The notes beneath the pieces are model-generated. The model ran no database searches and was not told where the DNA came from. It was given only the letters and a program-made list of their open reading frames with translations. A DNA stretch of 64,000 bases, from the NCBI RefSeq assembly GCF_006345805.1, contig NC_043009.1:24490001-24554000 (forward strand), given 5' to 3'. Source of the stretch: Octopus sinensis (taxonomy: Eukaryota). Positions 2,984-56,057 of the stretch are shown here, in pieces (position 1 is the first letter of the stretch; the number at the start of each line of letters is the position of its first letter). The translations under genes were made by a program, and so were the position numbers.

Positions 2984-2989
2984 GATCCT

Positions 2990-9601: not shown

Positions 9602-9958
9602 GAAATGGAGTTAAACGCCAGTGTCATTCAAATCTTTATACTTCCGATAAATGTTTCGAAGAAAACATTCCAGAGGGAAAGAATTGATGTAAAACAATGC
9701 GATATTCTCATCAGGGAACAAAAATCTATCAAGGGTATTTTTAAAAAATAACTTGCCAGCGTTCCCTTCATCATATACGCAGTCATCACATCCGGTTAAA
9801 ATGGCTTATTGATGTGTGTAGTATCTCTTTCTTGCCCTGATGAGAAGATCGCATTGTTTTACATCATTTTGTTCCTTCTGGAATAATACCAATGTTTTCT
9901 TCGAAATATATGTCGCAAGTATAAGGATTTCAATAACACCTGCGTTTAACTCCATTTC
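9602..9958. repeat. Inverted pair of Penelope-type terminal repeats, each with a hammerhead-like motif
   Basis: 9602-9718 is a diverged reverse complement of 9831-9958; both carry CTGATGA...GAAA..NTC. Confidence 0.75.
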
Positions 9959-15504: not shown

Positions 15505-15670
15505 TAAACCTGTTTTATTTTCTTGCCTTGTTTATTTCTGTGTTTCTTCCTGTTTAAGAGCGTGGGCTAGAAACGTAAAAGACTTTCTCACTTCCCGAGC
15601 GTTAAACTAATACCAGTTTGTTGTTTACACCCCCGCCTTCATCTTTTTTTTTTTGTAAATTCTCACTATA
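15505..15670 (+). mobile_element. Diverged solo Penelope pLTR relative
   Basis: CTGTTTAAGAGCGTGGGCTAGAAACGTAAAAGAC..GAGCG..ACTAATAC aligns with 52548-52680. Confidence 0.65.
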
Positions 15671-15695
15671 TATGGATATACATATATATGTAAAG

Positions 15696-15733
<38 letters not shown>

Positions 15734-16466
15734 GTAATATATAATACATACTAGTGTGTACAAAGAATTTTGTAAGTTATATTCGTATGTACAAAGAACG
15801 TATTGTAAGTTAAACGTCGATGTTAATAGCAGTCCGACATTGCTTTCTGAAAGAGAATTTACCAAAAGGTTCAGTTTGTTTCCCAAACACGCTGGAAAGT
15901 TGAAGAAATTGTTATAATGTGTGTGGCAAGACTTTTCTATGATCCATATCCTTTCGATATGATGGATATCTGTTGTTCGACGACGAAGATTGAGTTGTTT
16001 GTTCTACACAATTGCCAGCTCCTCAATTAACGATTGCTGGCCGTTAAAGGAAATTAAGAGTAAATGGCTGAATATCCTACAAAGATGTATGCCTTTAACA
16101 TAATTCTCAGCCAGAATGATCAGTATCCTTCAAATTACTAATACATTCTACCTGATTAATATCTACGCAGTTTACAATTTTCAGCAAAAGGTATGAGTGA
16201 AGCTGATATATAACATCCATTGAGATCGAACTCGGGGCCGTCGTGTATTTAAAATCAACTTCCAAACCATGCGGCACTATTTTCCATGAAAGTTCCCTAT
16301 ATGAATAAATCAATAATAGGTCTCCTTTACAGGAAGAAAATTCAATATCCGCATGCTATCAGCAGTATATTGTATTCGGACCAGCTACTCGAACTTGGCC
16401 ATGATTTAGCATCCATAAGAGATCACATGCCAGCTCGCTTTTAGCTTTCCACCAATATCTCGCAAA

Positions 16467-17896: not shown

Positions 17897-18350
17897 ATTA
17901 TTATTGTTCGACCGTGGTCGAGACAATGGAATTTACCATGCTACGCCAGACTTCACGGGCCATCATGGCATTACGGAGGTCCTGTTGCTGGATGCCTGTA
18001 TCACTGGAGATTACATCAGGGTAGGAGAGTTTGCGCCCTCTGGTATTGCGAGTAGATGGCTTCCAGAGGAGAAGAGTAGAAATTACCTCTTTTTCAGCTC
18101 TACAGCAATATCCAGCAAACTGGACTCTCCTAGCTTTCACAAGAGATGACACAGGTGGTAGTTTCCCATATATTTGCATTTTGGTTGGATGGCGCTTCCA
18201 CGAGATATTTTGAGCTCTCATAAGGAGGCGAGTGTAGATTCCATCCAACCACCTCTCAAGCTTCTTTGATAACGTCCAGGTTTCTGAGCCATATAGTAGG
18301 ATTGGTTCGACTGTGGCTTAGAAGATTTCAAGTTTGAAGTCCCTACTTAG
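17897..18350 (-). mobile_element. RTE-clade LINE 3' fragment
   Basis: LLYGSETWTL..DGIYTRLL..NISW..RRVQFAGYCCR..LLWKP..GRKLSYPD..DTG..AM..REVWR, then stop and a TAA tail. Confidence 0.88.
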
Positions 18351-31853: not shown

Positions 31854-32231
31854 TAATAATAATAATAATAATAGTGATGATGATAATGGTGATAATAATT
31901 ATCTATGCATATGCTTATATATATATATATATATATATTATATATTATGCGCTCACGTGGTCTCACTTTCATCCTATATTCTACCAATACCACTATCAAC
32001 ACTTACCACTACCTTGGATTTTCTTTACCTCTTGGATACTTACCATTGGCTGCACCTCTCTTTCGCGGATCAAAGTGACTTTGCATTGATGTGAAATCCT
32101 TAAAAAATATACCACGACGTCTACACATTTCTCACCTTGAACTTTCAACCTTGAACTTGTTCGCATAAACTGTCCCGTTTGTTGTATTTTTATTTCCTCT
32201 TATATTACCACTTTTTTTACATTCATTTCAT

Positions 32232-32432
32232 ATTCGTTAGCTACTGCACGCATTTTTTTTCTCTCCTTCTTTCTGTGTTTTTCTCTCTCTGTGTATCTTT
32301 CTGTTGAAGAGCGTAAGCTCGAAACGTTAAAGACTTGTTTTATTTATATTTCCTGAGCGCCATACTAATACAATTGTTCGTTTGTTTTCCACCTGCCTTC
32401 GTCTTTTGTTTATTTTCATAAAGCTTCCCGTT
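32232..32432 (+). mobile_element. Solo Penelope pLTR, near-identical to 52479-52679
   Basis: About 200-bp match with few differences; includes the minimal hammerhead-like motif; ends in (TA)n. Confidence 0.85.
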
Positions 32433-32494
32433 ATATATATATATACATAGCAATAATAAATCTCTGAACAAGATGTAAACAGTAGCTGCTCGAC

Positions 32495-32859
32495 AACGTA
32501 ATGTATACTAGTCATCTCAATATGGCTAACCACTAAGGGTGGGGTGGGTGTTACTGTAGCTTTAACCCCAGGAGATCATCGTCTCCAACTGGCTTTAGGT
32601 ACACTTTCTATGCACTTATGGTATTTGCAAAGGGAGGTCATCCCTCTCTCGTCAACCTAAGTGATACGCACGGAACTGCAGTCCGTGCGTATCACTTAGG
32701 TTGACGAGAGAGGGATGACCTCCCTTTACAAATACCATAAGGGCACAGAAAGTGTGCCTAAAGCCAGCTGGAGACGATGATCTGGGGCTAAAAGCTACAG
32801 TAACACCCACCCCACCCTTAGTGGTTAGCCCTATTGAGATGGCTAGTATACTTTACGTT
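32495..32859. repeat. Long near-spacerless palindrome, arms about 180 bp
   Basis: Centre ACTG|CAGT at 32678/9; arms match with about 10 differences. Confidence 0.93.
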
Positions 32860-32892
32860 ATACATATAAATACTTATATATATATATAATAT

Positions 32893-32966
<74 letters not shown>

Positions 32967-33051
32967 TATGTTATATATGTATATATACGTACATGTATAC
33001 ATATATATATAGTGTATGTACATTGTTGTGTTTAGAGGAACTAAGTATATA

Positions 33052-33923
33052 CAGGGTGTCCATAAAGTCTCTTTACAATTTAAAAACATTATTACAAAGG
33101 CATTTGATGGGATATTTTAACCAGATTTACTTTATTTTAGTGAATGTTTATTAAAGTTTTTATTTGGATTATATTTTCGTGTCTCAGATACTCTGTTGAT
33201 ATAAAATGACGATGAAGCATTCCTCAAGCGAGTTTGTTTAATGACGAAGCGACTTTTCATGTCTCAGGGAAATTAAACAAACACAATGTGATAATCTGTG
33301 GATCAGGGAACTTCAACGGGATAGTCCAAAAGTGAATGTGTGTTGTGGTATCATGCACAGTCGAATAAGTGGTCCATTTTTCTTCAACTAGGCAACATTT
33401 ACTGTAGATTGTTACCTTGACCTTCTAACCGAATATGTGGAATCACAATTGGTTGATTTACAACCAACCATCATTTTCCAGCAAGATGTTGCACCACCAC
33501 ATTGGGGACGGCATGTTCGTCAGTTCCTCAATCAAACATTTCCAGATTGATCGATATGAAGAGATGGGCCAATTCCATGGCCACCGCGTTCGCCAGATAT
33601 CACTCACTTTGACTTATTTTTATGGGGTTATGTAAAAGATATCGTGTATCAAAGATACGAGACAATGTTGACTAGAAGCAAAGGATTAGTAATGCCATTG
33701 CCACCGTTGATGAGGCTATCCTACAGCGAATATGGCAAGAAATCGAGTACCGTCTTGATGTGCTTCGCGCAACTAATGGTGCCCATATTGAGGTCTATTA
33801 AATAACAGGTAAAGAAAACTTTAATGAACATTTATTACAATAAAACAAATCTGGTTAAGATATCTTGTCAACTGCCTTTGTAATAAAGTTTTAAAATTGT
33901 AAAGTGATTTTATGGACACCCTG
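33052..33923 (+). mobile_element. Tc1/mariner superfamily (DD41D-type) internally deleted transposon
   Basis: TIRs CAGGGTGTCCATAAA / TTTATGGACACCCTG with TA on the left; broken transposase DEATFH..GPFFF..FQQDVAPPH..WPPRSPDI..LWGYVK; reconstructed D-D spacing about 41. Confidence 0.88.
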
Positions 33924-33931
33924 AAAAAATA

Positions 33932-33978
<47 letters not shown>

Positions 33979-34321
33979 GTGTGTGTGTGTGTACTTTGTA
34001 TATGTATGTATGTACGTACATATGTATGTATGTATGTATGTATGTATGATGACTTCCACCCAGTTTCTAAAACAGGTGCTTGCGAAACAAACTTTCTAAC
34101 TTCAGGATCTTTGCATATCTGTATTGTAGCTGTCCTCTTTTGTCACTAGCTCTTTTGGACTATTCCCTGTCCATTAGGTGAGTTTAAGGCGATACCAATT
34201 TGTTGCATAATTTATGACCGTACCTTGGTCTGAGAGTAGCTTCCTCTTGTATTCCTTAAACGTTCTCTATCATGGTCCTTTTTCCTTTATGAAGAAATAC
34301 ACCAATTTTATATCTAGGTCC

Positions 34322-34575
34322 AGGCATGGCTTTGTGTTAAGATGTATCCTTCTCAACCAACATGGTTCTCGCTTCAGTCCCACCGCCTGGCACCTTGGGC
34401 CTTGTGATTTGATTTGATTGACGGAAAAATTGAAAGGCGCATGTCGTATATGTATATGTGCGTGTATTTGTTTGTACCACCCTACGGCTTGACAAGCGGT
34501 GTTGATGCGTTAGTGTCTCCGTTATTTAGCAGTCTGCCAGAGAAAGCAATAGAGTAAATATGTAGCTTTACAAAA
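34322..34575 (+). mobile_element. SINE family A, diverged and internally deleted
   Basis: CAACCAACATGGTTC..TTCAGTCCCAC..TGGCACCTTGGGC..GCTTGACAA.CGGTGTTG. Confidence 0.6.
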
Positions 34576-34978
34576 TCAATAAATACAATTTTCTAAGATA
34601 GACGTTAAAAATATGTAAATTAGACTCTTGTACGCCTAACTTATGCGTCATATTCTTCCTCACAGGATTTTGTTCTATTAACTCAAAAATTCTTGGGCTC
34701 AGTTCCTTCCTACATGACCATATGATGCATCAGGCTTAATCATCAGTATCGTTTTTTGAGTTTAATCCTTCGGAACATTCTGAAACCAAACACCGTCAGC
34801 AGCAAAAAGTTATATAGAGGTAATGAATTCCCGGATCATGTCCAGTAAACACTAACTCTTTTGGGTCTTAAACCTGATGTGAAGCCATCTTGAGCTACCC
34901 ACTTCTTTCTCGTTAGACAGCTTGATGGCATTTCGCCTACAGTATTTGTTTCCGTTTTCATTAATTAGCTTGGAATTC

Positions 34979-35385
34979 AAGGCGGCGAGATGGCAGAAAC
35001 GTTAGCACGCTGGAAGAAATGCTTAGCGGTATTTCGTCTGCCGTTACGTTCTGAGTTCAAATTCCGCCGATGTCGATTTTGCCTCTCATCCTTTCGGGGT
35101 CGATTAAATAAGTACCAGTTACCCACTGGGGTCGATATAATCGACTTAATCCGTTTGTATGTCCTTGTTTGTCCTCTCTCTGTGTTTAGCTCCTTGTGGG
35201 TAGTAAAGAATTAGGTATTTCTCCCGTCGCTACGTTCTGAGTTCAAATTTCACAGAGTTCGTCTTTGCTTTTCATCCTTTCGGGGTCGATAAATTAAGTA
35301 CCAGTGCAACACTGGGGTAGATGTAAACGACTAGTCCTTTTCCCGCAAATTTCAACCCTTGTGCCTTTAGTGTAAAAGATTAATT
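34979..35385 (+). mobile_element. SINE family B, nested or dimeric pair
   Basis: Head TGGCAGAAACGTTAG..GAGTTCAAATTCC; core TCATCCTTTCGGGGTCGAT..AAGTACCAG present twice, with two different tails. Confidence 0.85.
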
Positions 35386-35686
35386 AGTAAGGAATTTCCG
35401 AGGTTGATAATTATAAATAATTATCTTGTTACAAAACTGACCAACATACTCAAAAGACATCATTAATGAAACACATTCTCTTTGAGAATAAATGGAAGCA
35501 ATTATAATCAAATAGCTGGATTAATAAGGTATATATTAGTTATAAAATTCTATCGCTAATACATAATCTTAAACTAGGTCTTAATGCGATTATTATTGTT
35601 ATTCTTGCTTACTCTCAAATCGGTCCTAATCCAATACAACTATGATGAAATAAGATACCAGCTGTATGTCGTTTTTTTATTCAATA

Positions 35687-36072
35687 GTAGCAGTATCGCC
35701 CGGCGTTGCTCGGGTTTGTTTCGACCCTTTTAGAATTGGAATTTTTGAAAAGTAAAACTTTTGCATTACGTAGCTTATTATTCTCTTTAAGTGAACATTT
35801 TTCTGGTTGAAATACACCGAAAAATGGCGACACAGCAGTAAAAAAATCGTAAAAAATAGGGATTTTCATAGAAAAAAAAGCACCTTTTTGATGTAAATAA
35901 TTTTTGGTATTAACTTGAATTTGAATTTTTTCTTCTGCGGAAGGAAGAGCAAGCCTTCTTTTATCATACTTTCAATTCTGATCAACTTGCGCCGCATGAT
36001 CTCGGAGGAGTGTTAGTTGAAGGCTACCAAACCTGCCATACACAGACAACTTCAGCTTTATATATATAGAGA
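35687..36072 (-). mobile_element. Non-autonomous Helitron
   Basis: Minus strand A|TCTCTATATATATAAAG start; subterminal hairpin CCCGAGCAACGCCGGG; end CTAC|T, one change from CTAG. Confidence 0.72.
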
Positions 36073-36386
36073 TGTGATGTGACTAAGACGACATTATCGA
36101 CTATTCCATTATTTAAGAGGTTAGGATATGATGTTTATAATATATGTGGCTGCTATTTTTAGTGACTAGTAACTGGCTTCCCCGTCGGCTGGTTGTTTAA
36201 TAACAAGAAGTAGTACGTCGGAAAGAAATAAATATCGGAGAAATGATCTGAGGCAGCAATGTAGACGCTATAAAAATTATTGAAATTTCGCCAGGTAGAC
36301 TGGCATTGCATCGATTTAGTAAAGTTGTGCTCATAAAGTGAATGTAATATTTGTGAACACGCACATACGCAAGCCACACACACACA

Positions 36387-36445
<59 letters not shown>

Positions 36446-37119
36446 ATATACATAAGTGTGTGTGTATGTGCAAGTGTGTGTATGTTGAAGTGTATGCCTG
36501 TGCTTGTGTGTCATCTTTGTGCTTATCTCCTCAAGGCTTGTTTACGGTCCCGTTACTTAGCGATTCGCAAAGAGCGTCCAATACATTAAGTACCAGACAT
36601 TAAAACGAAAAGAAGTACTGGGATCGATTTGTTTTAAGTCGATGCCCGAACATTGCTGCAATCGAATATCTAAAACAAGAAAAAAAAATACTTGACAGGC
36701 AGTTTGTCTCGTTGAAATACAAGGATTTGTGTAATAAATACACGAAAGCATATCTTCTAAGTCTTGTGTGTGATAAATAAAATACTCTAATGGTTTAACG
36801 TATATCGCATCACATTACAACACAACACAACAGCGCGTCTCAAGTATCATTTTTATATAAGATTCAAGTGCGTTGAATAAGTACTAATATCTAGTATTGG
36901 AACACAGATAAAAGCTTAGGTGTGGAGAAGAGCACGACTAATGCATTCGATCACCAGTTATTGATCGTCATTCTATTTTATCGATCATAGAAGGATGATA
37001 AGCAAATCTTATAGGTTCAGGCTCAGCTGTGTGATTAAGAAGCTAGCATTGTATCAACGTGGTATCGGGTGCCTGGGGTAAGGATTTCGCACTACAGTCT
37101 CGAGCAATCTGACTCAATT

Positions 37120-37358
37120 ACTTAGAAGGAAACATGATACTCAGGGTGAAATATCCGACAATTCCCTTCGTGGGACACAGACGCATGGACATACAAGTAT
37201 CGGCAGACCAGCAAGAGCATATATTGTTCGACTTCGGGAAGACACAGGATATCAGATTGAGGATGTGAAGAATGCAATGGAAGATCTAAATATTTGGCAT
37301 GGAAGAGATGCATTGTATGAGTTTGCATACATACATACATACACACATACATACATAC
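37120..37358 (+). mobile_element. RTE-clade LINE 3' fragment
   Basis: HGHTSIGRPARAYIVRLREDTGYQIEDVKNAMEDLNIW followed by a (CATA)n tail. Confidence 0.75.
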
Positions 37359-37604
37359 ATATATATATATAAATAACGAGTGTAATAAATTGAATATTAA
37401 TTTAATTAGTATCAATTTAAAACCGGTAGCCTATAGAAAAAGCTGAAAAATCAGAAAAAATTACAATACATGTGTATATTTAGGGATAAACACTAGGTGA
37501 ATAACCAATATGAGAACAATAGAGAACATTCTTTTCTTTGTAGTTAGATCGTATGTGATCTTCCTCTAGCATATTGTTTATACACCTAGTGGTTATCCCT
37601 AAAT

Positions 37605-37637
<33 letters not shown>

Positions 37638-38110
37638 CACATATATAAAGGTATATATATATATATAAATACATACACACACACACACGCGCGGATAGAA
37701 AGAGTGAGAGTGAGAGAGTGGAAGAGAGAGAGACAGACATTACATTTCATTTGAACACGATACATTTAAACACTTTTCATCGCTTTATACGCATAAGCAG
37801 AAATGTAGCCATACACATAAACAAGCAGAGAAAGGGAGAGAGACACACAGATAAATAGAGAAAGGCTGTGAAAGACAGAGAGAGAGAGAGAGAGAGAATG
37901 ATTGGGAGTAAAAGGGAGAAGAAAAGAAACATTGAAACGTCTGATGTCAAAAAAGTCAGCGTCGAATCAGAGACGCCATATCCAAATAGGCGGCGCCAAA
38001 CCAGATATGACGAATGCCTCATACCCAGGTTTCTCGGTTCAGGGTTGATCTCCATTCCGCATATAAACAATAATAATAAATACTGTATATTCGTATATGT
38101 CATTTCACAG

Positions 38111-38198
38111 GAGGAAGATTTCAACATAGCACCGTGTTTAAAAGCAGTATATCTGTTACAAAACTAGTAAAGATGGAATTTAACCCAGTTTCCACAAG
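38111..38198 (+). CDS. Candidate host exon (GRFQHSTVFKSSISVTKLVKMEFNPVST)
   Basis: Acceptor TCATTTCACAG, donor AAG|GTATAT, one open frame (phase 1 to phase 2), unique sequence. No homology recognised. Confidence 0.35.
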
Positions 38199-38320
38199 GT
38201 ATATGTCACTGAAATTTCAATATTCTCCTCTGAGTTGAGTGTCCTTACGTTGCAGGGTAAACTTCACAGCTATTAGTAGAACTCATTTGCATCTGAAGTA
38301 GGGTAATATACTCTCTTACA

Positions 38321-38710
38321 CTTTTACTTGTTTCAGTCATTTGACTGTGGCCATGCTGGAGCCCCGCCTTTAGTCGAGCAAATCGACCCCAGGACTTATT
38401 CTTTGTAAGTCTAGTACTTATTCTATCGGTCACTTTTGCAAAACCGCTAAGTTACGGGGACGTAAACACACCAGCATCGGTTGTCAAGCGATGTTGGGGA
38501 CAAACACAGACACACAAACATATACACACACATGTATATACATATATATGACGGACTTCTTTCAGTTTCCGTCTACCAATTCCACTCACAAGGCTTTGGT
38601 CGGCTCGAGGCTATAGTAGAAGATACTTGCCCAAGGTGCCACGCAGTGAGACTGAACCCAGAACCATGTGGTTCGTAAGCAAGCTACTTACCACACAGCC
38701 ATTCCTACGC
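38321..38710 (-). mobile_element. SINE family A, full length, best-preserved copy
   Basis: Minus strand A-box TGGCTGTGTGG, B-box GGTTCAGTCTC, internal TG/TA tract, tail GACTGAAACAAGTAAAAG. Confidence 0.9.
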
Positions 38711-39194
38711 TTATGAAAAATGAAATATTTTGCTGAGGAAAACAAATCATCGCCCGATCTAAGGATCGAAACCACCATAATGCGATCGTGACTAGAACAC
38801 CGTAGGCATCACGCCACACACCTTCAACCTGTTATAGAGTACCACCACTAATGCCGTCACCGAAATTTTGATATATCTCTGGAGCAAATGTTTTCACTTC
38901 GTTACCCTTTGGCAACGAGATGACGCATCGATGATATGAGATCTTATACATAGTACCTTGACGTTTTTCTGGAAAAAGACCTCTTACATTGCAAGTAAAG
39001 AATTTAATAGACTTCGAGTCTGACAACTGCATTTATTCTCGATCTCAATGCATTCTGTCACGTTATCATGACATACGATGCATATGTCTGTTTGAGTGCA
39101 ATTTCTTAGAAATATGCAACGTCATTTTCAGTTCTGTATAAATGAAGAGGTAGGAATTTCAATTTCACGGAATATGCATACATACATACACGTG

Positions 39195-39234
<40 letters not shown>

Positions 39235-39879
39235 TATATATATATAATAATATTATATATATATATATACACTTATATATAGATATATATATAATATATA
39301 TATATATCTATTATATATATATATATATACACATATATATATATATATATATATACTTATATATATATATATATATAAATATACATATATATATATAGTA
39401 TATATATGTTGAATTTATTATATATATATATATATATGTATGTATACATACATACAAATCGATGCATATCTATATTCAGCTACGCACGCAACACAAACGC
39501 ACAACTCAGGTACATGTATATGTGAATATGTATATGCTAACATATATACAAGCATAAATGCATATACATGTGTGTATGTGTGTGTTGTGCATGTGTGTGT
39601 GCGTGCGTGTGTGTGTGTGCGTGTGTGTATGTGTGCATGTGTGTGTGTGTGTTGATGGATGTGTACGCGCGCGTACGTAAAAATATGCGTTGTTAAGACA
39701 CACGTTTACAACGGCATCCGAATTATCACGAAGTGTAAGAAAAGTAATTGCAAAAATCATACCGCGAATCCATACTTTCAACGGCTGCTTCCTTCCTGTT
39801 ACAGAGTTCTGAATCTAACTATATAATAGGAAAATGGACAGACAGATATATATATATATATATATAGACAGATAGATAA

Positions 39880-39915
<36 letters not shown>

Positions 39916-39916
39916 G

Positions 39917-39958
<42 letters not shown>

Positions 39959-40049
39959 TATAGACAGATTGATAGATAAATAAATAGATAAATGGACAAA
40001 TACGTACAAGAATGGAAAAATAGTGGGTACTAACTTGCCCAAACTCATA

Positions 40050-40094
<45 letters not shown>

Positions 40095-40263
40095 CTTTCT
40101 ATCTATCTATCTATCTATATATCTATCTATCTATCTATCTATTATATCTACATATATATACACACACACATTTAAAATATTGCGCAACATATATTAATAT
40201 ATATTATATATGTATATTTCTTCCTACCCCTCTTTCTCTCTCTTCCCTCTCTCTTTGTCTTGG

Positions 40264-40294
<31 letters not shown>

Positions 40295-40849
40295 TTATAT
40301 ATGTATATGCGTGTGTATATATATGTATGTATGCATGCATGTATGTGTGTGTATGTCTATTCATATATATCTATTCATATATATCTATTCATATATATAC
40401 ATACATACATACATACATACATACATACATACATACATGCATACATACATACATACCTGAGTCTACAGATACATACATACAGGATTAAAAAAGTTAATGA
40501 CAACCACCGCGATGAACCATTGCGTATCGTTAATACGTATCGGCTTGAACAGCCGCCTGGAATGAGTGCGAACGAATCGTACCAGTTATAAATAATGAAC
40601 CATCTTTCAAGCTCAACGCATCCAGTTGTCAGTCATTCTGGATATCGGATCTATGTGACAGCTGTTTACACTCGTACGAATATCTGAGATACCCACTCTT
40701 GATGCTCCGAATGTATTACTGTAGAAATGTTTATCTAACAAGAGAGCTAGCTTTCCGTGTATGTGCGCACCCCTATATTTATAGTGTATATATATATATA
40801 TATATACATCCACCACTTGTTCTTTGTAAGTGTGGTACTTATAAGTTCA

Positions 40850-41760
40850 GCAAAAGTTAGATTCAGATGAATATGGTACTTACGTTAAAGGCACCAGAAT
40901 TTGGTGTGGTATTATCCATATAAATCAAATGGGGTGATTATAATCAAAATAAGCAACACGGATATCCAAAGGTCGTGTAGTACGATCGGTTCATGCTACT
41001 TCATTTAATTAAACAATGTAAGTATTACATCAGTTTTAAAATGTATAGCACTCTTCAGCCACATATGGAATTTTTAAAATTAACTTGACAATGTTCATTT
41101 TTATACTTATCCCATTTACCAACATTACAAAGAGGGTAGGTATATAGACAGAGAGGTGAATTTCATCAATAAAAACATGGTAGTAGATCTTAACTCATGG
41201 GCAGATTTTTTATCACTGAGTTCACTTTGTTATTTAGATTTACCAATGGGGGGGGGATTTCTATTAAGTTCAGTAGAGACAATCAAGAATTTTTCTATTG
41301 TTAGATAGAGGAAGGGGCAGTTAGATAGAGGAAGGGGCAGTTTTAAATGGCAGAGCCATAAATCCAACCCTTTTATGAGGAATTTAACTTTGGTACATTT
41401 GACTGAATTTCAACTAAAGTTAGTAGGCTGAAGCTAGTGGGGTAGGGAGAATAAAGACTTCTAATGGGCTTAACCATTTAACAGCCATAATCCTACTTGT
41501 GTTTTACGTAAATATATTTTAGATAGTTTTTTCCAAAGGATTCTAATAATTTTTAGTATCTTGTATAGGGATGGGGAGTATAGAAATCATTTCATATTTA
41601 TAAGAATATATATATATATATCAGATTATTATTAATATAGATTTATAGTTAGTTAGTAAATAGTAATTTATTTGTATTAATGAGTTAAATTAAAGGAATA
41701 TGCTAGATATATTATATATTTCCTGCAAAAAAATCTTATCAATTAGCACATATATCAAGA
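40850..41760 (-). mobile_element. AT-rich PLE 3' UTR/pLTR-like remnant
   Basis: Contains the hammerhead-like motif at 40976-41063; boundaries approximate. Confidence 0.45.
40976..41063 (-). ncRNA. Type I hammerhead-like motif (A15.1C change)
   Basis: P1 TGTGG/CTACA; CTGAAGA; P2 GTGCTA/TAGCAT; GAACC-GATC-GTA. Confidence 0.65.
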
Positions 41761-42467
41761 GCCTGGTTTAAACTTACATTGTTTAATTAAGGAGTGTGGA
41801 ACTACCTCGAGAAAGAATTTTTCCCGCGTGAAGTAGCATCTGCCACGGCTTCAACTATAGGTGAATCAGTATGACACCAAAGTACCTCCTGTAGAAGAGC
41901 GAAATAACGGATCAAGAGCAGATATCGCACCTGAAGTCTTTTGCTATTCGTCTAAGAGAAAATAATTCCGTGGAAATCCTGCCCCCTTATTACTACATTG
42001 CTTGTCATACTCCTTTCATCAGAAGATAGACGTCATAGAGGATCTAGTTCTACACGAACCATGCCCATTGTAAAATTTTTTATTCTGTAGGTTGTTCAGC
42101 GAACCAAGATACTGGACCAAACACCGTCACATCTCATCAGAAGCCGAGTGACGGAAAGAAAAAATGACGACAGAAATCTTCATGTTTCGAGCAAAACACT
42201 GGCGGTCTTGGCCTGGAGGTCCTTTTCCACAGGCGTGGAAAAACTATATCTGTGCCTTCTGGAAAATGTTACTTAGAGACAAGAACGATACACACACACA
42301 CATTCACATACACCCCCCCACACACACACATACACACACACACACAAACACACACACAACCACATATATATATATATGTTGCGTGTGTGTATATATATAT
42401 TGATAGATAGATAGATAGATAAATAGATAGATTGATAGAAAGATAGATAGATAAATAGATACATATA

Positions 42468-42559
<92 letters not shown>

Positions 42560-42760
42560 GAGACAGACAGACAAATAAATAGATAAATACATACATATAC
42601 ATATATATATACATATATATATACACACACACACACAAACATATATTTATATATCCATCTTTCTGTCGGCTTACATATCTCTTTCTCAATATGCATATAT
42701 GTGTGTGTGAGTGTCTGCGTATCTGTGAGTGCATATGTGTACAAACGATATATATGTCGA

Positions 42761-42796
<36 letters not shown>

Positions 42797-42823
42797 ATGT
42801 ATGTATGTGTGTGTATATATGTA

Positions 42824-42861
<38 letters not shown>

Positions 42862-42961
42862 CATGTATGTATATGTAAGAATGTATACACACACACACAT
42901 ATTAGTCTGAATATAAGGTCCGTATATTTGAATATTTCTCTACATCTATCTTTTTCTGCAG

Positions 42962-42995
42962 ATCTATGCATAATGGATATAGAGACGATGAGTGA
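42962..42995 (+). CDS. Candidate terminal coding exon ((R)SMHNGYRDDE*)
   Basis: Strong acceptor TCTTTTTCTGCAG; phase-compatible with 38111-38198; an alternative frame ends at 43038. Confidence 0.33.
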
Positions 42996-43783
42996 GGGGC
43001 CGGGTGATTCCGAGGAGGAGCAAAATACGGATCATTAATGGTAATAACTCCAAGACAGACACTTGGAGAATCGTGACAGCCAAATCGGCATTGTACTGAG
43101 TGGCATTCGTTGGTTGTTCACTTTGGTTCTTACTTTCGTTCTTACTTTCGTTCCTCTGTTGTTTTGTTTGGCCCATTGCCTCGATCGGTCGTTTATAAGA
43201 CCACTAAAAATATCTGTCGAAATGGAAAATGATTTCTCATGAAAAATATATTGGAAACATAGAGGAATGGTGGCAGAAAAATATTTCAGTTAAGCTGGAA
43301 ATTAATTCTACAATATCCTCCTGATTCTATGACAAGTTGTTAATAAAGAATGAAAAATTACTTTCTTGTAATGTGTTGTTCGGCGAAAATCGCCATAATA
43401 TTAAGATCTCTCGCATAGTTGGAATTATTACATCAATAATAATCCAAGTGTAGTGTGTAATTTAATATTGCCACCAATGTTCTGCTTCAACGGTTCTTGG
43501 CAACAACAAAAACAAAAACAAAACATATTTCCAATTACGGTGTTAGAAGCAGTAGCAGTAGAAGGAGCAGCAGTAGCAGCATAAGGAGGAACTAAAAGAA
43601 CAGCGGCGGCTACGACAACAACATTACCAACAACACCAACACCAACAACACCACCAACAACTAACGGAATATTAATAACATCTTTGACAGAGGAGCAGGA
43701 AAAGAAATAAAAAGGAATTGTCGAATATATACGTGTGCTTAAGAATGTATGAACATATACATACATTCAAACATATATGTATA

Positions 43784-43845
<62 letters not shown>

Positions 43846-43985
43846 ATATATATATATGCACACATAAACGCGCATACACGCACACCCATATATGCATACA
43901 CCAAACATATGCGTTTCTTTCCTGTACGCGCTAAAGCACCATTAGTTGGTTTCCATTCACTTACATGAATACATATGCGCGCGAT

Positions 43986-44063
<78 letters not shown>

Positions 44064-44221
44064 TATACATACATAATTATAAAACATACGTACACAACAT
44101 ATAAACCGAGCCATGCTACAGGTATCATGTAATGGAGGAGAATGTATCCTATCACGCTGCTTGTAACAAGAACTGTATTATCCGTGAATATTATGCTCTC
44201 TCCGTTCTGCATATACGTGCA

Positions 44222-44253
<32 letters not shown>

Positions 44254-44670
44254 ATCATGCACGCGTACATACCTAGACATACACATACATACAACATACT
44301 TAGATAATTCATACGTGGACAACGAGAGACAGAGAGAGAGATGACGAGAGAGAAATTGGAAGGGGGAGAAAGAAAGGAACACAGTCAGAGAAACAGATAG
44401 ACAGATAAGTAGACTTCTTGATAGATTTTGTGTTGCGTCGATTTTAAAAAGCAGGAGTCTAGTTTCTCGGTCCATTGGGCAAGCCGCATATTAATTTAGC
44501 GCTTAAAAAGCGATTCTATTCACGAAATTTCCAGGTAGAATTAGCGTGGAAGTCTGTGGTGTGGTGAGATATTTGCATTCCAAGTAGGATTCTTCCAACA
44601 GTCTTTTGCCCTTCTTTCGTCTACTCAAATTTATTTAAGAGGCTTGTGTGAAATAGAGACTAGAGCGAAG

Positions 44671-44832
44671 TATCTACTCACGACAACATGCGAACCGGAC
44701 TATTTCGCGACCTTACAACAGACGGGTAAACGTTTTATCCAATCAACAAACCACCGTTGATTGGATAAAACGTTTACCCGTCTGTTGTAAGGTCGCGAAA
44801 TAGTCCGGTTCGCATGTTGTCGTGAGTAGATA
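44671..44832. repeat. Perfect hairpin, 77-bp arms, 8-nt loop
   Basis: 44671-44747 equals the reverse complement of 44756-44832. Confidence 0.96.
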
Positions 44833-45051
44833 GGACTTATTAGGCTGTACGCATATCAACCGTATGGCGGGAAATGGCTAAGTACAATAGCATATATTTC
44901 ACAATGAGTTATAACAAACATGGAGGTATCATGCGTTAGTAGGATGTGTATATATGTAGATATGTGTGTACCAAATCCAATTTAATACGTAGGTACAATT
45001 CAGTTTTATTATACGAGCGGCGTAGGTATAAAAATGAAGAACACAAATTGA

Positions 45052-45137
45052 GTTTAAACTTTACGACAGCTGTTTCGGTAGAATTTTACTGATTACATCA
45101 TAGCATCAATCCACCATCTTCAGGTAAAAGTTTAAAC
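45052..45137 (-). ncRNA. Type I hammerhead ribozyme motif with intact core
   Basis: P1 GTTTAAAC(T)TTTAC/GTAAAGTTTAAAC; CTGAAGA+T; P2 GGTGGA/TCTACC; GAAAC-AGCT-GTC. Confidence 0.8.
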
Positions 45138-45205
45138 AGGTATGAACAGCTTAGGTAAAACCTTGATGATGACATATCTAAACACATATTGCATACTTAC
45201 CCACA

Positions 45206-45465
45206 TATGGGGGCTGCTGAACGGTTCCTAGCTTTAGGGGATCACGAAAAGGCTTGGCTGGAAACCAAACATTCCGAGTTTGTTTTAAAGGGCTTAGAGA
45301 AACTGAGAGACCGCTACAATAGGTGTGTCAATCTGAGAAGAGAACATGTGGAATAAAATCATGATTACCTGACCACTACTGCATTTTCTTTTACCACACA
45401 CACACACAAACACACACACACACACACAATACACACACACACACCATATAATATATTATATATAT

Positions 45466-45518
<53 letters not shown>

Positions 45519-45590
45519 ACGTATATACGAGGGTGCTGAATTAAGCCTGTCTTTTGGTAAAAGAAAATGCAGGAGGGTCAGGTAATCATG
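45206..45590. mobile_element. mariner-derived non-autonomous fragments
   Basis: KGLEKLRDRYNRCVNLRREHVE* resembles a mariner transposase C-terminus; inverted terminal piece at 45526-45590. Confidence 0.6.
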
Positions 45591-46407
45591 TGTGTGTGTG
45601 TTTTCATATTTCTATAAATTACATGCAAACGTTGGTCCATTCAATATGTTAGCGAATGGACTTTATCAATCAAGAGAAAATGGGTTTTACAAAATTCCAA
45701 TAGTAGTAGTAGTAGTATAGTAGTAGTAGTAGTATAGTAGTAGTAGTAGTAGTAGTAGTGTATACACTCGCGTATTCATTTCTCTGCTTAACTAATCCAT
45801 AATTATAGTATTACCTAATGAAATTTTCGTTGTACTACTTGATAAGAAATATACGCGAAGAAACCCTCTCCTTGATACCCGGATATACAAAAGTAAAATG
45901 GAAAGTTTTTGTTTTTACATGCACACATTTTTGTACTTTCTAAATTCCTACTGAATACAAATACAATACAAAAACAAAACATTCCATCAGCAATCACAGA
46001 AAGAAAAAGACAATCAACAAATAAAATTCACAACAGGGGCAACTGTAGTTGTAGATTTATTGTAGAATCGAGAAAAAATGTAGTAGGGAGAACTTTGAAA
46101 GAACTATCAGTGTTTTCTTACCGAATCCAAATCATTAGAAGGCAAAGAAAATGAATATTCCCCAGAAAATATGGATCTGAGCAGTATCTGACAAGAGAAG
46201 ACGTCTAACACTTCAAGATATCTCGGAAAAACTTCTCACAACCGAGGAAAGAAAGGTTGTGAGGGACTATCAGCTGTTGTTTCATGCTGAAGAATTAAAC
46301 AAAGCAAATGCTGAAATTCTTAGATATAAACATCTCTGACCCTATACATGTAATTCTCTACACCCCTAAATTTGCCGGCCTGGTGGCAAAATTTAAAAAA
46401 AGTACTA

Positions 46408-46582
46408 TTATCATCTTTTTCATTTTCACCATTACCACCACCATCATCATCATCATCATCATCATTATCATAATTAACATCATCCTTACCCGCTTCTTCT
46501 TCTTCTTCTACTTCCTCTTCTTCTTCTTCTTCTTCTCCTTCTTCTTTTTCTTCTTCTTCTTCTTCTTCTTCTTCTTCTTCTT

Positions 46583-46662
<80 letters not shown>

Positions 46663-47038
46663 GGAGAGTTGGAAAGAATCGTTAGCGTGCCGGCCTAAAT
46701 GCTTAGCAGTATTCTCTCTGTCTTGACGTTCCGAGTTCAATTCCGCTGTGGTCGCCCTTTCCTTTTATCCTTTCGGGGTCGATAAAATAAGTATCAGTCA
46801 AATACTGATGTCGATGCAATCGACTAGCTCACCACCACCACCACCACTATCACCACCACCACCACCGCCATCACCACCACCATCATCATCACCACCACCA
46901 CCACCACCACCACCACCACCACCACCACCATTACCGCCACACACACTCATTTTCAGGCCTGGCGTCGTTAATAGAAAGGTTTATTTTTACTATTATTATT
47001 ATTATTATTATTATATTATTATTATTATTATTATTATT
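46408..47038 (+). mobile_element. SINE family B copy embedded in CAT/CTT/TTA/CCA microsatellites
   Basis: GTTAGCGTGCCGG..GAGTTCAA..TCCTTTCGGGGTCGATAAAATAAGTA at 46665-46830. Confidence 0.75.
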
Positions 47039-48146
47039 GCCTCCTACTTAACGTAATTTTAGTGACAAATCACATCACGTCCAACTTCCGACCATAATAC
47101 AAAAACGTTATATATGACACAATGTCAGCAAACAGAGAAAAAAATCCTGGAAGGTTTCCTCTTAAAAATCATTGCATCTCTCTAGACGGAGGACATAAGG
47201 AAATCAATCTTAATTTCTATAGAAATTTATATATTTTTCCATCGTCTGCTTTTGTAGTTACGTATTTTATTTAATTAGACGAAACGGTTTATATTCAATA
47301 GATTGATTTATTATTTTCTATCATCCACTATTAATGTCTGTCTTGATTTCTACAACCAATTTTTTCTGGGCGAATAAAAAAATCAGACCATCAGACATAT
47401 TAATATATTTCCTTCCAAAGTTCTTTTATTTTGATTAGGAATCCACCACCTTCAGCTGTCGTTTTTGTTGTTATTGTGTTGATGGCGATAGTAAAGGCGG
47501 TTGTTGATGTATTTTATTTTGCTAGGGTTTGTTATGCGCTCTTTTCCACGAACATCGTTGCTCTCTATTGAATGAGTCGTAAAACGCCAAAATGCGCAAC
47601 AGGAAAATAAAAGAAAAAGAAAATTCATTCAGCGAATATTCTCGGCGGAGAATCGGGGGGTTTGGTCTTGTATGTCATTTATTCTGAGAATTGTTCAGCA
47701 GTTGATTTTAAAGATGTGTAGCCGAGACGTTTACTATGCGACAATCTTAGGAGTATGGGAAGTGTTGTGTTGCAGCTAAACAGCAATTGCATTAGTCGGC
47801 CATGATTGGGAGATCAGGATAATCAAAAAATTAAAGAGTTCAAATCTGGATGCTTTAGTAAGAAGAATTCAAGGAATGGAATAACTATTGTTATGTGTTA
47901 TATAACGGTTATTATGCTATGTAATTAATTATTTATTTAAAAATCAATATTCTGATGTCACTATCTCTAACTCTCTTTCTCGAATTTTTCTCTCACACTC
48001 AGTACGTATCTTCTTCAACCAGCCACAACAAGATATGTTGACACGCTTCACCACGCCTTCGCAGCAATACTCTGTACACACGTACCCATAATGTACATGG
48101 AAATATAAGTATTTAGACATGAGTGTATATTTTTTATCTATACATG

Positions 48147-48205
<59 letters not shown>

Positions 48206-48209
48206 TAAT

Positions 48210-48851
48210 ATAATTCTTACCAATATGTCATTTCCATACCGAAAAATCTACTAGGTGAAATTTATTAATTTTATTAAATTAATTATATTTCACCCTTTTT
48301 GTATATTGAATACTATTACTCCCTTACAATAAATCTGCGAAACTTCGTTTCTTTGGTAATATTTTTGTAACTCAAATGGTAATTTTGGAGGGAGATACGA
48401 ATTCGCCTGTTTATATAAATGGAGAGATGTTAGCGGACCGTTAGATCGTTCGATGTCGCCTGATCGAGCTGGTGTAATGGGTGAGTTTTTTTCCTAGCAT
48501 TTCTAGATTTATAGGAAATATTATATTGACAAGGAAATGAACTCTCGGTTCTAATCCAGAAACGATTCGTCTATAGTTAATCCAATAGGCTGGGATTTCG
48601 TTATTTTCTTTCTCTTTACCATATACGGGTTACAAATTATGTTTGTTTGTGGAGACTTTTTTATTAGTAGGACAAATAGTGATCTATTTGGCTGGTATTT
48701 CTAATATTTTCGGTATGTGTTTTTGAGCAACTTGTTCCAATTAACCATTATTATAATTAATAAATTCTTACCAAATATGATCTTTTCCATACCTAAAAAT
48801 TTACTAGGTGAATTTATTAATTTTATTAAATTAATTATATTTCACCCTTTT

Positions 48852-48858
<7 letters not shown>
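48210..48858. repeat. Diverged ~95-bp direct repeats (48210-48305 / 48762-48858) around unique sequence; probable PLE partial tandem
   Basis: AATTCTTACCAA..CTAGGTGAA.TTTATTAATTTTATTAAATTAATTATATTTCACCCTTTTTGTATA occurs twice; both ends of the block abut (TA)n. Confidence 0.65.
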
Positions 48859-48908
<50 letters not shown>

Positions 48909-49995
48909 ATATAATATATATATATACATATATATAATATATATATACCAGTTGTATACTGGGGTCGATGTAATCGATTTAGCCCGTACCCGAATTGCTA
49001 GCATTGTGCAAAAATTGGAAACTAATATCAAATCCTTCCGTGGTCGACTTTACATTTTGGGTTTGATGCGGTCTAGATATAATCTTGTTCCCCAAATTTC
49101 ATACTGTATAAAAGTCAATATATTCCAAACTCATCTATGGAATCTGCAGTATTAGCTCCTTCATAAACATGATACGCCATTCCACGAACGTTCAAAATTC
49201 CAGATTTATAACCTACCAACACCTAATGCATAGGAAAAATTCAGGTCATAATGAATTCTTCACTTTAAGCAAGAAACACTAAGCAAATTTTCCCTATTCC
49301 CACCACAGCAAACAATAACGAAGTCTAATTGGGATCAAATGGCAACTCACTAATCTGAATAGTAATTAAATCAATGGTCGAAAGGTCGAATGATGCCATC
49401 ATCTAGACCTTTAAGATGATGATCAAAGTTTTAAAGTTCGCTTATATCGGTTTTAAAAATTATGGATTAAATTATGAAATGAATTGAAAATTATTTCATC
49501 AGTGCTAAATTTGATGATATTAGTGCAAAGGGAGGTGGTGGCGGGAAATATGCAATTAGTTTAGTATTTAATTAGCTACGGGAGTTAATTATATCAACAG
49601 CAATGTTCTCATAGGTCCAGGTGTGAATATGGTTAAGTAGCGTATATATGTGATAAGGTATGAAGCTTAATGGAACTATGAGAGGGGCGTTCGGTCTTTG
49701 GCATAACAGTTACACATTCCTGTTTGATTGCACTCATACAAAACTACCTATATAAATACAGAGATATATGCATAGCCACATACAAATATTTACACACACA
49801 CACATATAAAGGTGTGTGTATGTCTGTGTGTGTGTGTGTGTGCGTATGTGTGTGTATGTGCAGAAACACACAGACACAGGCACACACACACAAAATCCCG
49901 AACATACACATAAAAGTCACAACAGACATGGAAAATGCTATGCATTTTATAAATTATATATATCTTATATACCGTAAATATTTAGCATATGTATG

Positions 49996-50047
<52 letters not shown>

Positions 50048-50127
50048 ATATTATATATATACATAAACATACATATAAATATATATACATATGTATATAT
50101 ATATATACATATATATATACACACACC

Positions 50128-51685
50128 ATTTACTTCCTCCCCAAAATCCACAAACCCAACAACCCTGGCCGCCCCATCGTCTCCGCCTGTAACTGCCCCA
50201 CGGAGCTCATCTCTAAATACCTCGACCGTGTCCTTGCCCCCCTAGTGGCATCTCTTCCCTCCCACATCCACGATACCAACCATGCTCTCCGGCTTTTCAA
50301 CTCTTTCTCCTTTCCTCCCGGCTCCTCCAAAATCCTTTTTACTATGGACATCCAAAGCCTCTATACTGTTATCCCTCACCACGAAGGACTGCAGGCCCTT
50401 CGACACTTACTTGACCTCCGCTCTAACCCTGTACCTGACACCTCCACACTCATTCGTCTGGCCGAACTTGTCCTTACTCTGAACTGCTTCTCGTTCGCGG
50501 GCGAGTTCTACCATCAGGTCTCGGGAGTGGCCATGGGAACGCGAATGGGCCCCAACTATGCGAACCTGTTCGTTGGCTATGTTGAGGCCCAAATATTCTC
50601 TAATTTCACTGGTCCCACTCCTGAACTATATGGTCGTTATATTGACGACATTATCGGTGCCACCTCACTCTCCCGCGAACATCTAGATTCCTTCCTCTCT
50701 TTCGTCCAATCTTTCCATCCAGCCCTCCACTTCACTTCCACTATCTCCAACACCTCTGTCTCCTTCCTCGACATTTCGGTTAGCATTCTTCACTCCACTC
50801 TTACCACCTCCATTCACTAGAAACACACAGACTCACACTCATACCTCAACTTCTCTTCCTCCCACCCAGAACACACCAAGCTTTCCATCCCCTATTCCCA
50901 ATTCCTCTCCTTCTACGTAGGCTCTGTAGTGACGACCATGACTTTGAGACTCAGTCTCAACGTATGGCTCACCACTTCACCCTACGTGGATACCCCCTCA
51001 CCACTATCCACACCGCCCTTGCCAGAGCACGGTCCGTGGACCGTGTATCTGCTCTCTCTCCCCGAACCCGCCCTGTAGTCTCCCGCCTCCCTTTTCCCTC
51101 TCACTTACCACCCCACGACCCTACGTCTCCAACGCACCATTCTTCGAGCTTTCCGTCATCTCCAGTCCGACCCGTCCACTTCACACCTCTTCCCTAACCA
51201 CCCTCCCCTCTTTCAAACGAGCCCACAACCTTCGAGACCTTTTGGTCCATAGCTCCTTCCCTGACCCTACCTCCTAACCCGGCTCGTTCCCCTGCTCCCG
51301 CCCACGTTGCTGCACTTGCCCTTACCTCTCCAACACCACCCGCCTCACTAGCACCCACCATCGACCCTATCCCATCATCCACTCCTTCACCTGCACCTCC
51401 AGCAATATTATCTATTGCATTTCTTGCTCTCTCTGCAATTCCTTGTACATCGGACAAACGGGACGCCGCTTGGCTGACCGGTTCGCGGAACACCTTCGTG
51501 ACATCCACCTTGCGAACGACACACACCGGTCTCACGCCATTTCCGCTCCACCGGTCACTCCTTGCAACACCTATCTGTGTTCGGTTTGTCCTTACACAGA
51601 GGCCATCCGGATTCCCGTTTGCGCCGTGAACAGGAATTAATCTTCTCTCTTCGCTCTTATACGCCCATTGGTCTCAACTCTCCCC
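50128..51685 (+). pseudogene. PLE reverse transcriptase + GIY-YIG endonuclease, disrupted
   Basis: YFLPKIHKP..GRPIVS, MDIQSLYT, GVAMG..PNYANLF, RYIDDI, FLDI; linker CSRPRCCTC; NIIYCISC..C..LYIGQT..RFAEH; TAG at 50818-50820 and frameshifts. Confidence 0.92.

Positions 51686-54283: not shown

Positions 54284-56057
<1,774 letters not shown>

What the first reader, a model, noticed from the sequence alone, without database searches (positions are those of the whole stretch)
45052..45137. Best-preserved hammerhead: intact core, 13-bp helix I, no adjacent ORF
Minus strand reads GTTTAAACTTTTAC-CTGAAGA-T-GGTGGA...TCTACC-GAAAC-AGCT-GTC-GTAAAGTTTAAAC. All catalytic core positions are present, the cleavage triplet is GUC, helix I is 13 bp with one bulge, and there is one extra U after A9. 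It is the copy most likely to be still active.
Basis: partly seen in the sequence, partly recalled or inferred. Interest (0 to 1): 0.75.

Follow-up and report, generated by a model that had tools for sequence, protein, structure and literature searches.

The report
Fossil hammerhead from dead Penelope retrotransposon
This is a well-preserved hammerhead ribozyme motif left in a lone end fragment of an old Penelope-type jumping gene; it is an ordinary, known kind that likely needs a second copy to cut and has none nearby, so it is probably a silent fossil.

Summary
The motif is real and was read correctly: a type I hammerhead on the minus strand with an intact core, GUC cut site, 13-bp bulged helix I and an extra U after A9. 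Its helix III is only 1-2 bp inside an 8-nt palindrome, the dimer-type design known from Penelope-like elements (PLEs). It sits in a lone, 5'-truncated ~370-nt 3' end of an old PLE family. In the genome, this end follows a decayed GIY-YIG endonuclease with Hydra-clade motifs in 9 of 29 endonuclease-selected loci. The family looks extinct: star-like tree, median 15% divergence, core no better conserved than the loop, no intact reading frame found. No partner copy lies within 84 kb. So 'most likely still active' is not supported, although the copy is among the best preserved (8 of 46 other hammerhead-selected copies pass the same test). Two residues of interest remain. The family has two fixed 3' ends about 200 nt apart (reported tails: 30-40 bp), paired long+short in 22 of 26 back-to-back insertions. 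This copy's hammerhead is also less diverged than its own flank. The scan noted two-armed PLE/hammerhead insertions earlier on other DNA of this genome.

The parts
44825..45196 (-). Lone, 5'-truncated 3' end (pseudo-LTR region, long arm) of an old Penelope-like retrotransposon family
   Evidence: family profile match 45196-44825, the only one in 84 kb; family end follows a GIY-YIG endonuclease at other loci
45052..45137 (-). Type I minimal hammerhead motif (dimer type)
45124..45137 (-). Helix I 5' strand; U45129 bulged; C45130 is the rare allele of a compensatory pair
45116..45123 (-). Core box CUGAAGA (C3-A9) plus extra U between A9 and G10.1
   Evidence: the extra base is a PLE min-HHR trait (PMC4209133)
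45077..45115 (-). Helix II (6 bp) and 27-nt loop II; loop about 12 nt shorter than in most family copies
45066..45076 (-). GAAA box (G12 = 45076) and 8-nt palindrome 45073-45066: 1-2 bp as a monomer, 8-bp duplex (-11.1 kcal/mol) between two copies
45064..45065 (-). Predicted cleavage site after C17 of GUC
   Evidence: sequence plus hammerhead consensus (known); not shown experimentally
45052..45064 (-). Helix I 3' strand; G45059 is the rare allele pairing C45130
44825..45027 (-). About 200-nt optional 3' extension ('tail') between the family's short and long fixed ends; this copy carries it
44671..44832 (.). Perfect 77-bp-arm foldback abutting the long 3' end; unique in the genome search; likely younger than and separate from the element
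   Evidence: DNA contig pieces

Best explanation
This is the hammerhead motif of a Penelope-like retrotransposon's 3' repeat, left as a lone truncated fragment of an old family that appears extinct, and it is likely inactive where it sits. Shown: the motif, the family, the family's link to a decayed C-terminal GIY-YIG endonuclease, insertion ends next to microsatellites, back-to-back long+short arms, and neutral-looking decay. Inferred from published PLE work: in the active ancestor, tandem copies were transcribed through; two hammerheads paired their palindromes into a double hammerhead, probably helped by the element's own protein, and cut after GUC. The protein nicked TA-rich DNA and began reverse transcription at one of two internal sites, predicted to lie about 37 nt and about 240 nt 3' of the cut site, which would give the short and long ends. 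This copy is one long-arm product that stopped after about 370 nt. Its core survived mostly by chance, helped by keeping the two CpG sites that touch G12 and C17. In a tube it would probably cut weakly as a tandem dimer and hardly at all as a monomer.
For: Family: 384 first-look candidates, 40 scored, non-self matches 72-87% identical. Endonuclease link: DNA of a GIY-YIG remnant found upstream of one copy retrieved 29 other loci; 9 of 29 carry the family end 0.7-1.4 kb downstream on the same strand at E<=1e-5, 2 more at E 7e-4, and 4 carry an inverted copy upstream; control: 1 of 30 loci of another PLE family, that one having been picked for carrying it. Endonuclease motifs CxCx5C, YIG, CxxC-x-E, N..CxY match the Hydra clade description (PMC8557442 section 11). 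Ends: 66 short and 60 long ends; microsatellite within 45 nt after 33 of 66 and 43 of 60 versus 15% background; 22 of 26 back-to-back pairs long+short, none long+long or short+short. Decay: in 62 copies not found by a hammerhead query, column conservation is 0.86 core, 0.86 helix I, 0.79 helix II, 0.88 loop II; median divergence 15%; 14 of 62 keep the core boxes, 0 of 62 keep everything; no covariation; star-like tree, median end branch 0.15; best protein relatives 42-46% identical, mostly with stops. Folding: monomer 2e-4, tandem double hammerhead ties MFE. No partner in 84 kb. Literature: monomer inactive, dimer weak (PMC4209133); protein-assisted (PMC11167929).
Against: The family's reverse transcriptase was not recovered (no hit with the one RT probe upstream of the endonuclease in the extended stretches), so PLE membership rests on endonuclease, ribozyme and insertion anatomy. 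This copy's hammerhead is less diverged than its own downstream flank (4 of 82 vs 47 of 197 non-CpG sites, Fisher p 5e-5; p 8e-4 after scaling for the family-wide difference), none of its 4 substitutions breaks core or helix, and two of them form a compensatory A-U to C-G pair seen in no other of 29 aligned copies. ViennaRNA ignores tertiary contacts, so the monomer figure is only indicative; canonical invertebrate retrozyme hammerheads can cut well as monomers (PMC7229834 passages). Two transcripts could dimerise in trans.
Confidence: 0.85

Rival explanations
1. This particular copy was kept under purifying selection after its family died (host co-option as a conditional, e.g. trans-dimer or chaperone-assisted, self-cleaving signal), or comes from a late, low-copy active sub-lineage.
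For: Hammerhead 4 of 82 vs flank 47 of 197 non-CpG differences; only 2 of 62 unbiased copies are as close to the majority over the hammerhead; unique compensatory pair (only 3 genome matches carry the 3' G allele in an otherwise exact motif, the two others with the unpaired 5' A); a 12-nt deletion confined to loop II. Domesticated hammerheads exist in amniotes (PMC7761336 passage).
Against: The copy was noticed because it is intact (winner's curse in a family of at least hundreds). Three of 24 other long-arm copies show the same asymmetry, one of them found without a hammerhead query. The flank divergence is concentrated in two 30-nt patches (13 of 30 and 12 of 30). Imperfect inverted repeats can be corrected by template switching (recalled), which would give the compensatory pair without selection. 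No host exon was recognised in 32000-50000; the one weak Pfam hit was a microsatellite artefact. Helix III has not been lengthened.
Confidence: 0.08
2. The family is a non-autonomous, retrozyme- or SINE-like short element moved in trans by PLE enzymes, and the endonuclease remnants belong to a different element.
For: Most fetched copies are short and ORF-less; no RT was recovered; animal retrozymes derive from PLE pLTRs (bioRxiv 10.64898/2026.07.22.740005, parts 1-2 of 5).
Against: 5' ends vary continuously and reach, through shared 3' UTR sequence, into the endonuclease on the same strand at a steady 0.7-1.4 kb in 9 of 29 loci. No head-to-tail hammerhead array of 170-400 nt units was seen at this locus. 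The hammerhead is the minimal PLE type, not the canonical retrozyme type.
Confidence: 0.05
3. Chance resemblance to a hammerhead in an AT-rich repeat.
For: No Rfam hammerhead match; no covariation within the family.
Against: 0 strict hits in 100 shuffles. Four PLE-hammerhead traits co-occur (extra base at 9/10.1, G10.1-C11.1, palindromic helix III, location in a PLE 3' end). Variation between subfamilies falls on the tolerant positions N7 (A/U/G) and H17 (C/A/U).
Confidence: 0.02

Closest known systems
Minimal type I hammerheads of metazoan PLE pLTRs (Cervera & de la Pena 2014, PMC4209133; abstract, results, discussion read)
   Same: Extra base between 9 and 10.1, G10.1-C11.1, 5-bp inner helix I, enlarged helix II, small palindromic helix III, mostly solo copies, pairs on opposite strands 100-700 bp apart.
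   Different: Outer helix I extends by 8 bp past a single bulge; loop II is long (about 39 nt in the family, 27 here). This family was not found described in two paper searches.
Hydra-clade EN+ PLEs (Craig et al. 2021, PMC8557442; section 11 and passages read, supplements not read)
   Same: C-terminal GIY-YIG with CxCx5C linker, CxxC before the conserved E, CxH/Y after N, canonical HHR, insertion at (TA)n-type microsatellites, inverted 5'-truncated arms, tail at one end only.
   Different: RT motifs (RWK, DKT) could not be checked. A long N/S-rich stretch precedes the linker. The optional tail is about 200 nt instead of 30-40 bp.
PAc, Poseidon PLE of Anolis (Frangieh et al. 2024, PMC11167929; passages and second half of main text read)
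   Same: Hammerhead upstream of two fixed 3' ends; ATG at the start of helix II; AT-rich targets.
   Different: PAc is intact and its ORF starts in the hammerhead; here the ATG frame stops after 3 codons in this copy (about 22 in family copies) and the two ends are about five times further apart.
Animal non-LTR retrozymes (PMC7229834 passages; bioRxiv 10.64898/2026.07.22.740005 parts 1-2 of 5)
   Same: Type I hammerhead in a short dispersed repeat; PLE ancestry.
   Different: No head-to-tail array; family linked to its own endonuclease gene; old and decayed.

Membership tests
Type I hammerhead ribozyme | Core CUGANGA...GAAA...NUH with helices I and II | tested here: met
Type I hammerhead ribozyme | Site-specific self-cleavage | not testable with these tools
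   needs in vitro transcription
Type I hammerhead ribozyme | Covariation support for helices | tested here: inconclusive
   90% of cells paired vs 33-50% for slid partners, but 1 compensatory cell, not above shuffles
Canonical monomer-active type I hammerhead | Stable helix III in the monomer | tested here: not met
   helix III pair probability 0.00; catalytic fold about 2e-4
PLE minimal (dimer-type) hammerhead | Extra nucleotide between 9 and 10.1; G10.1-C11.1; palindromic 15.2-16.2/loop 3 | tested here: met
   U45116; G45115-C45077; perfect 8-nt palindrome; features from PMC4209133
Penelope-like element (EN+) | C-terminal GIY-YIG endonuclease upstream of the 3' repeat | tested here: met
   for the family, not this copy: 9 of 29 loci; tblastn to a PLE endonuclease E 1e-13; Pfam GIY-YIG only weak (E 0.011) on that probe, none on two family fragments
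Penelope-like element (EN+) | PLE reverse transcriptase in the same ORF | tested here: inconclusive
   no RT hit upstream of the family endonuclease; copies truncated or too decayed, one probe only
Penelope-like element (EN+) | 5' truncation, inverted 5'-truncated arm, tail at one end | tested here: met
   26 back-to-back pairs, 22 long+short
Penelope-like element (EN+) | Tandem pLTR-ORF-pLTR full-length copy | tested here: inconclusive
   none among the loci fetched
Hydra clade of PLEs | CxCx5C linker, CxxC and CxH around E/N, no CCHH | tested here: met
   by eye on decayed translations against the description; CxH often reads CxY
Hydra clade of PLEs | RT phylogeny, RWK and DKT motifs | not tested
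   no RT recovered
Hydra clade of PLEs | Insertion into (TA)n-type microsatellites | tested here: met
   33 of 66 short and 43 of 60 long ends vs 15% background; this copy's own end is followed by a foldback instead
Non-LTR retrozyme | Head-to-tail repeats of 170-400 nt each with a hammerhead | tested here: not met
   single copy in 84 kb; no such array

The most novel reading that the evidence does not exclude
This one copy of a dead retrotransposon's dimer-type hammerhead has been kept by selection: every change in it spares or repairs the fold (compensatory C-G pair, loop-only substitutions and deletion) while its flanks drifted about 24%. It would be an invertebrate case of a domesticated PLE ribozyme acting as a concentration- or chaperone-gated switch that cuts only when two transcripts meet.
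Probability: 0.07. Interest if true: 0.65.

Novelty: new member of a known kind. Interest (0 to 1): 0.2.

Why it matters
As it stands it matters little: PLE hammerheads occur by the thousand in animal genomes and this is one fossil copy. The family adds one useful mechanistic observation: two fixed 3' ends about 200 nt apart, never the same end on both arms in 26 back-to-back insertions. That suggests the two nicked target strands prime at two different internal sites of the RNA, and that the PLE 'tail' is not limited to 30-40 bp. If the copy proved to be under selection, it would be a rare domesticated PLE ribozyme outside vertebrates.

Tried and rejected
Rfam: no hammerhead model fits; the miRNA hits are generic matches to the foldback, all below gathering score. 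Expression: no RNA holder listed; contigs of 5 runs guessed to be RNA gave no close cover of the hammerhead (X4; X5, X7, X8, X18); this is no evidence either way. Cross-species test: DNA runs X1-X3 (3 organism labels, 2 studies) hold the copy with no listed difference from its own contigs across the hammerhead and 1-2 differences in the 900-nt stretch, too close to test selection. L062/L070: an intact PLE next to a family fragment proved to be a different, young family with its own ribozyme-like end; used only as probe and control. Host gene: the weak TPR_RPAP1 hit at 36162-36530 is a (GT)n translation; the real gene lies on C1. Two minus-strand frames (15602-16003, 17901-18317) were never scanned against Pfam. 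RT of the family: not found in 12 + 14 extended stretches. An apparent 41-bp tail (ends at 44871 vs 44830) was a BLAST drop-off artefact; those copies run on to the long end. CpG decay does not explain the hammerhead/flank asymmetry. One long-arm copy (L042, hammerhead part misaligned) was dropped. A full-length degenerate pattern count of intact copies was not obtained, so genome-wide copy numbers are lower bounds. Lunse et al. 2017 (PMC5785218) is not held; only its title and a review's summary were seen.

Full report
Observation. It has type I hammerhead topology: helix I of 13 pairs with U45129 bulged, CUGAAGA, an extra U, a 6-bp helix II closing a 27-nt loop, GAAA, and GUC with the predicted cut between 45065 and 45064. 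It is the only hit of a structural scan in the window; 100 shuffles gave 0.05 hits on average, and none under a stricter filter. Rfam has no model that fits. ViennaRNA gives the catalytic monomer fold about 2e-4 of the ensemble (6e-6 to 2e-4 in three longer contexts). The palindrome forms an 8-bp duplex with a second copy (-11.1 kcal/mol), and in a tandem dimer the double hammerhead ties with the MFE at -48.0 kcal/mol, though it holds only 0.7% of the ensemble under full constraints. These figures ignore tertiary contacts.

The family. The window lies in a 2.72-Gb animal genome (G000). The hammerhead retrieves dispersed relatives at 72-87% identity (384 first-look candidates, 40 scored), and 19 places carry the 3' half of the core exactly. 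In the window the family match spans 45196-44825, and it is the only one in the window plus 10 kb on either side. Walking upstream through longer copies reached decayed GIY-YIG endonuclease frames. They lie on the same strand as the family end in three extended loci and on the opposite strand of an inverted arm in two (12 stretches examined). The reverse test used only endonuclease DNA as the query. Of 29 non-self loci, 9 carry the family end 0.7-1.4 kb downstream on the same strand at E<=1e-5, 2 more weakly (one of these was a seed locus), and 4 carry an inverted copy upstream. Flanks were only 1.5 kb, so this is a lower bound. Among 30 loci of an unrelated young PLE family the only hit was the locus chosen for carrying a family fragment. 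The endonuclease shows CxCx5C, YIG, CxxC before E and Cx(Y/H) after N, the traits described for the Hydra clade (PMC8557442 section 11, read whole). The reverse transcriptase was not recovered, so clade placement is provisional.

Insertion anatomy. Among 158 distinct profile hits, 3' ends pile at two places, model positions about 190 and about 392, i.e. window about 45027 and about 44825. Microsatellites follow within 45 nt in 33 of 66 short and 43 of 60 long ends, against 15% at random. Of 26 back-to-back pairs (25 loci), 22 are long+short, 4 have one unclassified arm, and none is long+long or short+short. Inverted 5'-truncated arms and a tail at one end are known PLE traits (PMC8557442 passages), and in PAc the two ends equal two RT start sites (PMC11167929). 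The reported tail is 30-40 bp; here it is about 200 nt. I ran no dedicated literature search on tail length, and unread supplements may list longer ones. The idea of testing arm asymmetry came from an earlier scan note on another family.

Age and selection. In 62 near-full copies from loci found without the hammerhead in the query, column conservation is 0.86 in the core, 0.86 in helix I, 0.79 in helix II and 0.88 in loop II; median divergence is 15%. Fourteen of 62 keep the core boxes and none passes the full test; 8 of 46 hammerhead-selected copies do. Across 29 aligned copies 90% of pair cells are paired, but covariation does not exceed shuffles. The tree of 25 long-arm copies is star-like, and the family endonuclease has no close intact relative: best non-self matches are 42-46% identical, mostly with stops. 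By contrast a separate PLE family in this genome has 150 scored copies at 95-100% amino-acid identity with open frames up to 717 aa. The family therefore looks extinct and neutrally decaying, while tolerant positions N7 and H17 vary by subfamily, consistent with function in the once-active sources.

Results against this reading. The window copy differs from the majority at 4 of 82 non-CpG sites in the hammerhead but at 47 of 197 downstream (p 5e-5; 8e-4 after scaling). Only 2 of 62 unbiased copies are as close over the hammerhead. Two of its changes make a compensatory C-G pair found in no other aligned copy; the others, and a 12-nt deletion, fall in loop II. This is what selection would look like. 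But the copy was noticed for being intact; 3 of 24 other long-arm copies show the same asymmetry, one of them found without a hammerhead query; and the flank divergence clusters in two 30-nt patches. No host exon was recognised nearby. DNA from three organism labels is too similar to test conservation. I give this reading under 10%.

Mechanism and verdict. Published work found a PLE minimal hammerhead inactive as a monomer and weak as a dimer (PMC4209133, parts 1-2 of 4 read; review passages in PMC6765202), and the PAc hammerhead silent without its protein. With no neighbouring copy and no family protein found, this copy is most likely a silent fossil that would cut weakly in a dimer construct. 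It works like, and by the tested features belongs to, the PLE dimer-type hammerheads; the family is a probable Hydra-clade PLE. Two paper searches combining hammerhead with a guessed taxon name returned no description of this family (search listings only; the taxon was not tested here). New member of a known kind; interest 0.2.

Noticed in passing
window 44671-44832: Perfect foldback, 77-bp arms and 8-nt loop, CpG-rich, starting at the element's long 3' end; only self-matches in the genome search, single-copy depth in DNA contigs. Far younger-looking than the element; origin unexplained.
   Followed up: partly
window about 9630-9722 (-) and 9829-9922 (+): Back-to-back pair of decayed type I hammerheads of a different family (CUGAUGA core, damaged palindromic helix III), about 120 bp apart; the same PLE two-arm layout.
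   Followed up: partly
L070:3598-5569 (+) (G000:C15) and L062:1206-1270: Young, high-copy PLE with RT, CxCx5C linker and GIY-YIG (150 scored copies at 95-100% aa identity, 25,387 first-look candidates). Its 3' end holds a hammerhead-like motif with a changed first box (C instead of U at position 4, read by eye). A better target for activity tests than the finding.
   Followed up: partly
window 49978-50820 (+): PLE-type reverse transcriptase fragment of another family (Pfam RVT_1 E 3e-8; motifs read by eye), opposite strand, 4.8 kb from the hammerhead.
   Followed up: no
window 406-3004 (-) and 55010-55426 (+): LINE remnants: RVT_1 and endonuclease frames at the window start, zf-RVT at 55 kb.
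   Followed up: no
window about 45360-45395 and 45555-45590: 37-bp inverted arms flanking a microsatellite block just upstream of the element; the arm region is high-copy in DNA contigs.
   Followed up: no
L208:1720-2370 (-): The family's endonuclease linker is preceded by a long N/S-rich, Cys-containing stretch (217-aa open frame, no Pfam match).
   Followed up: partly
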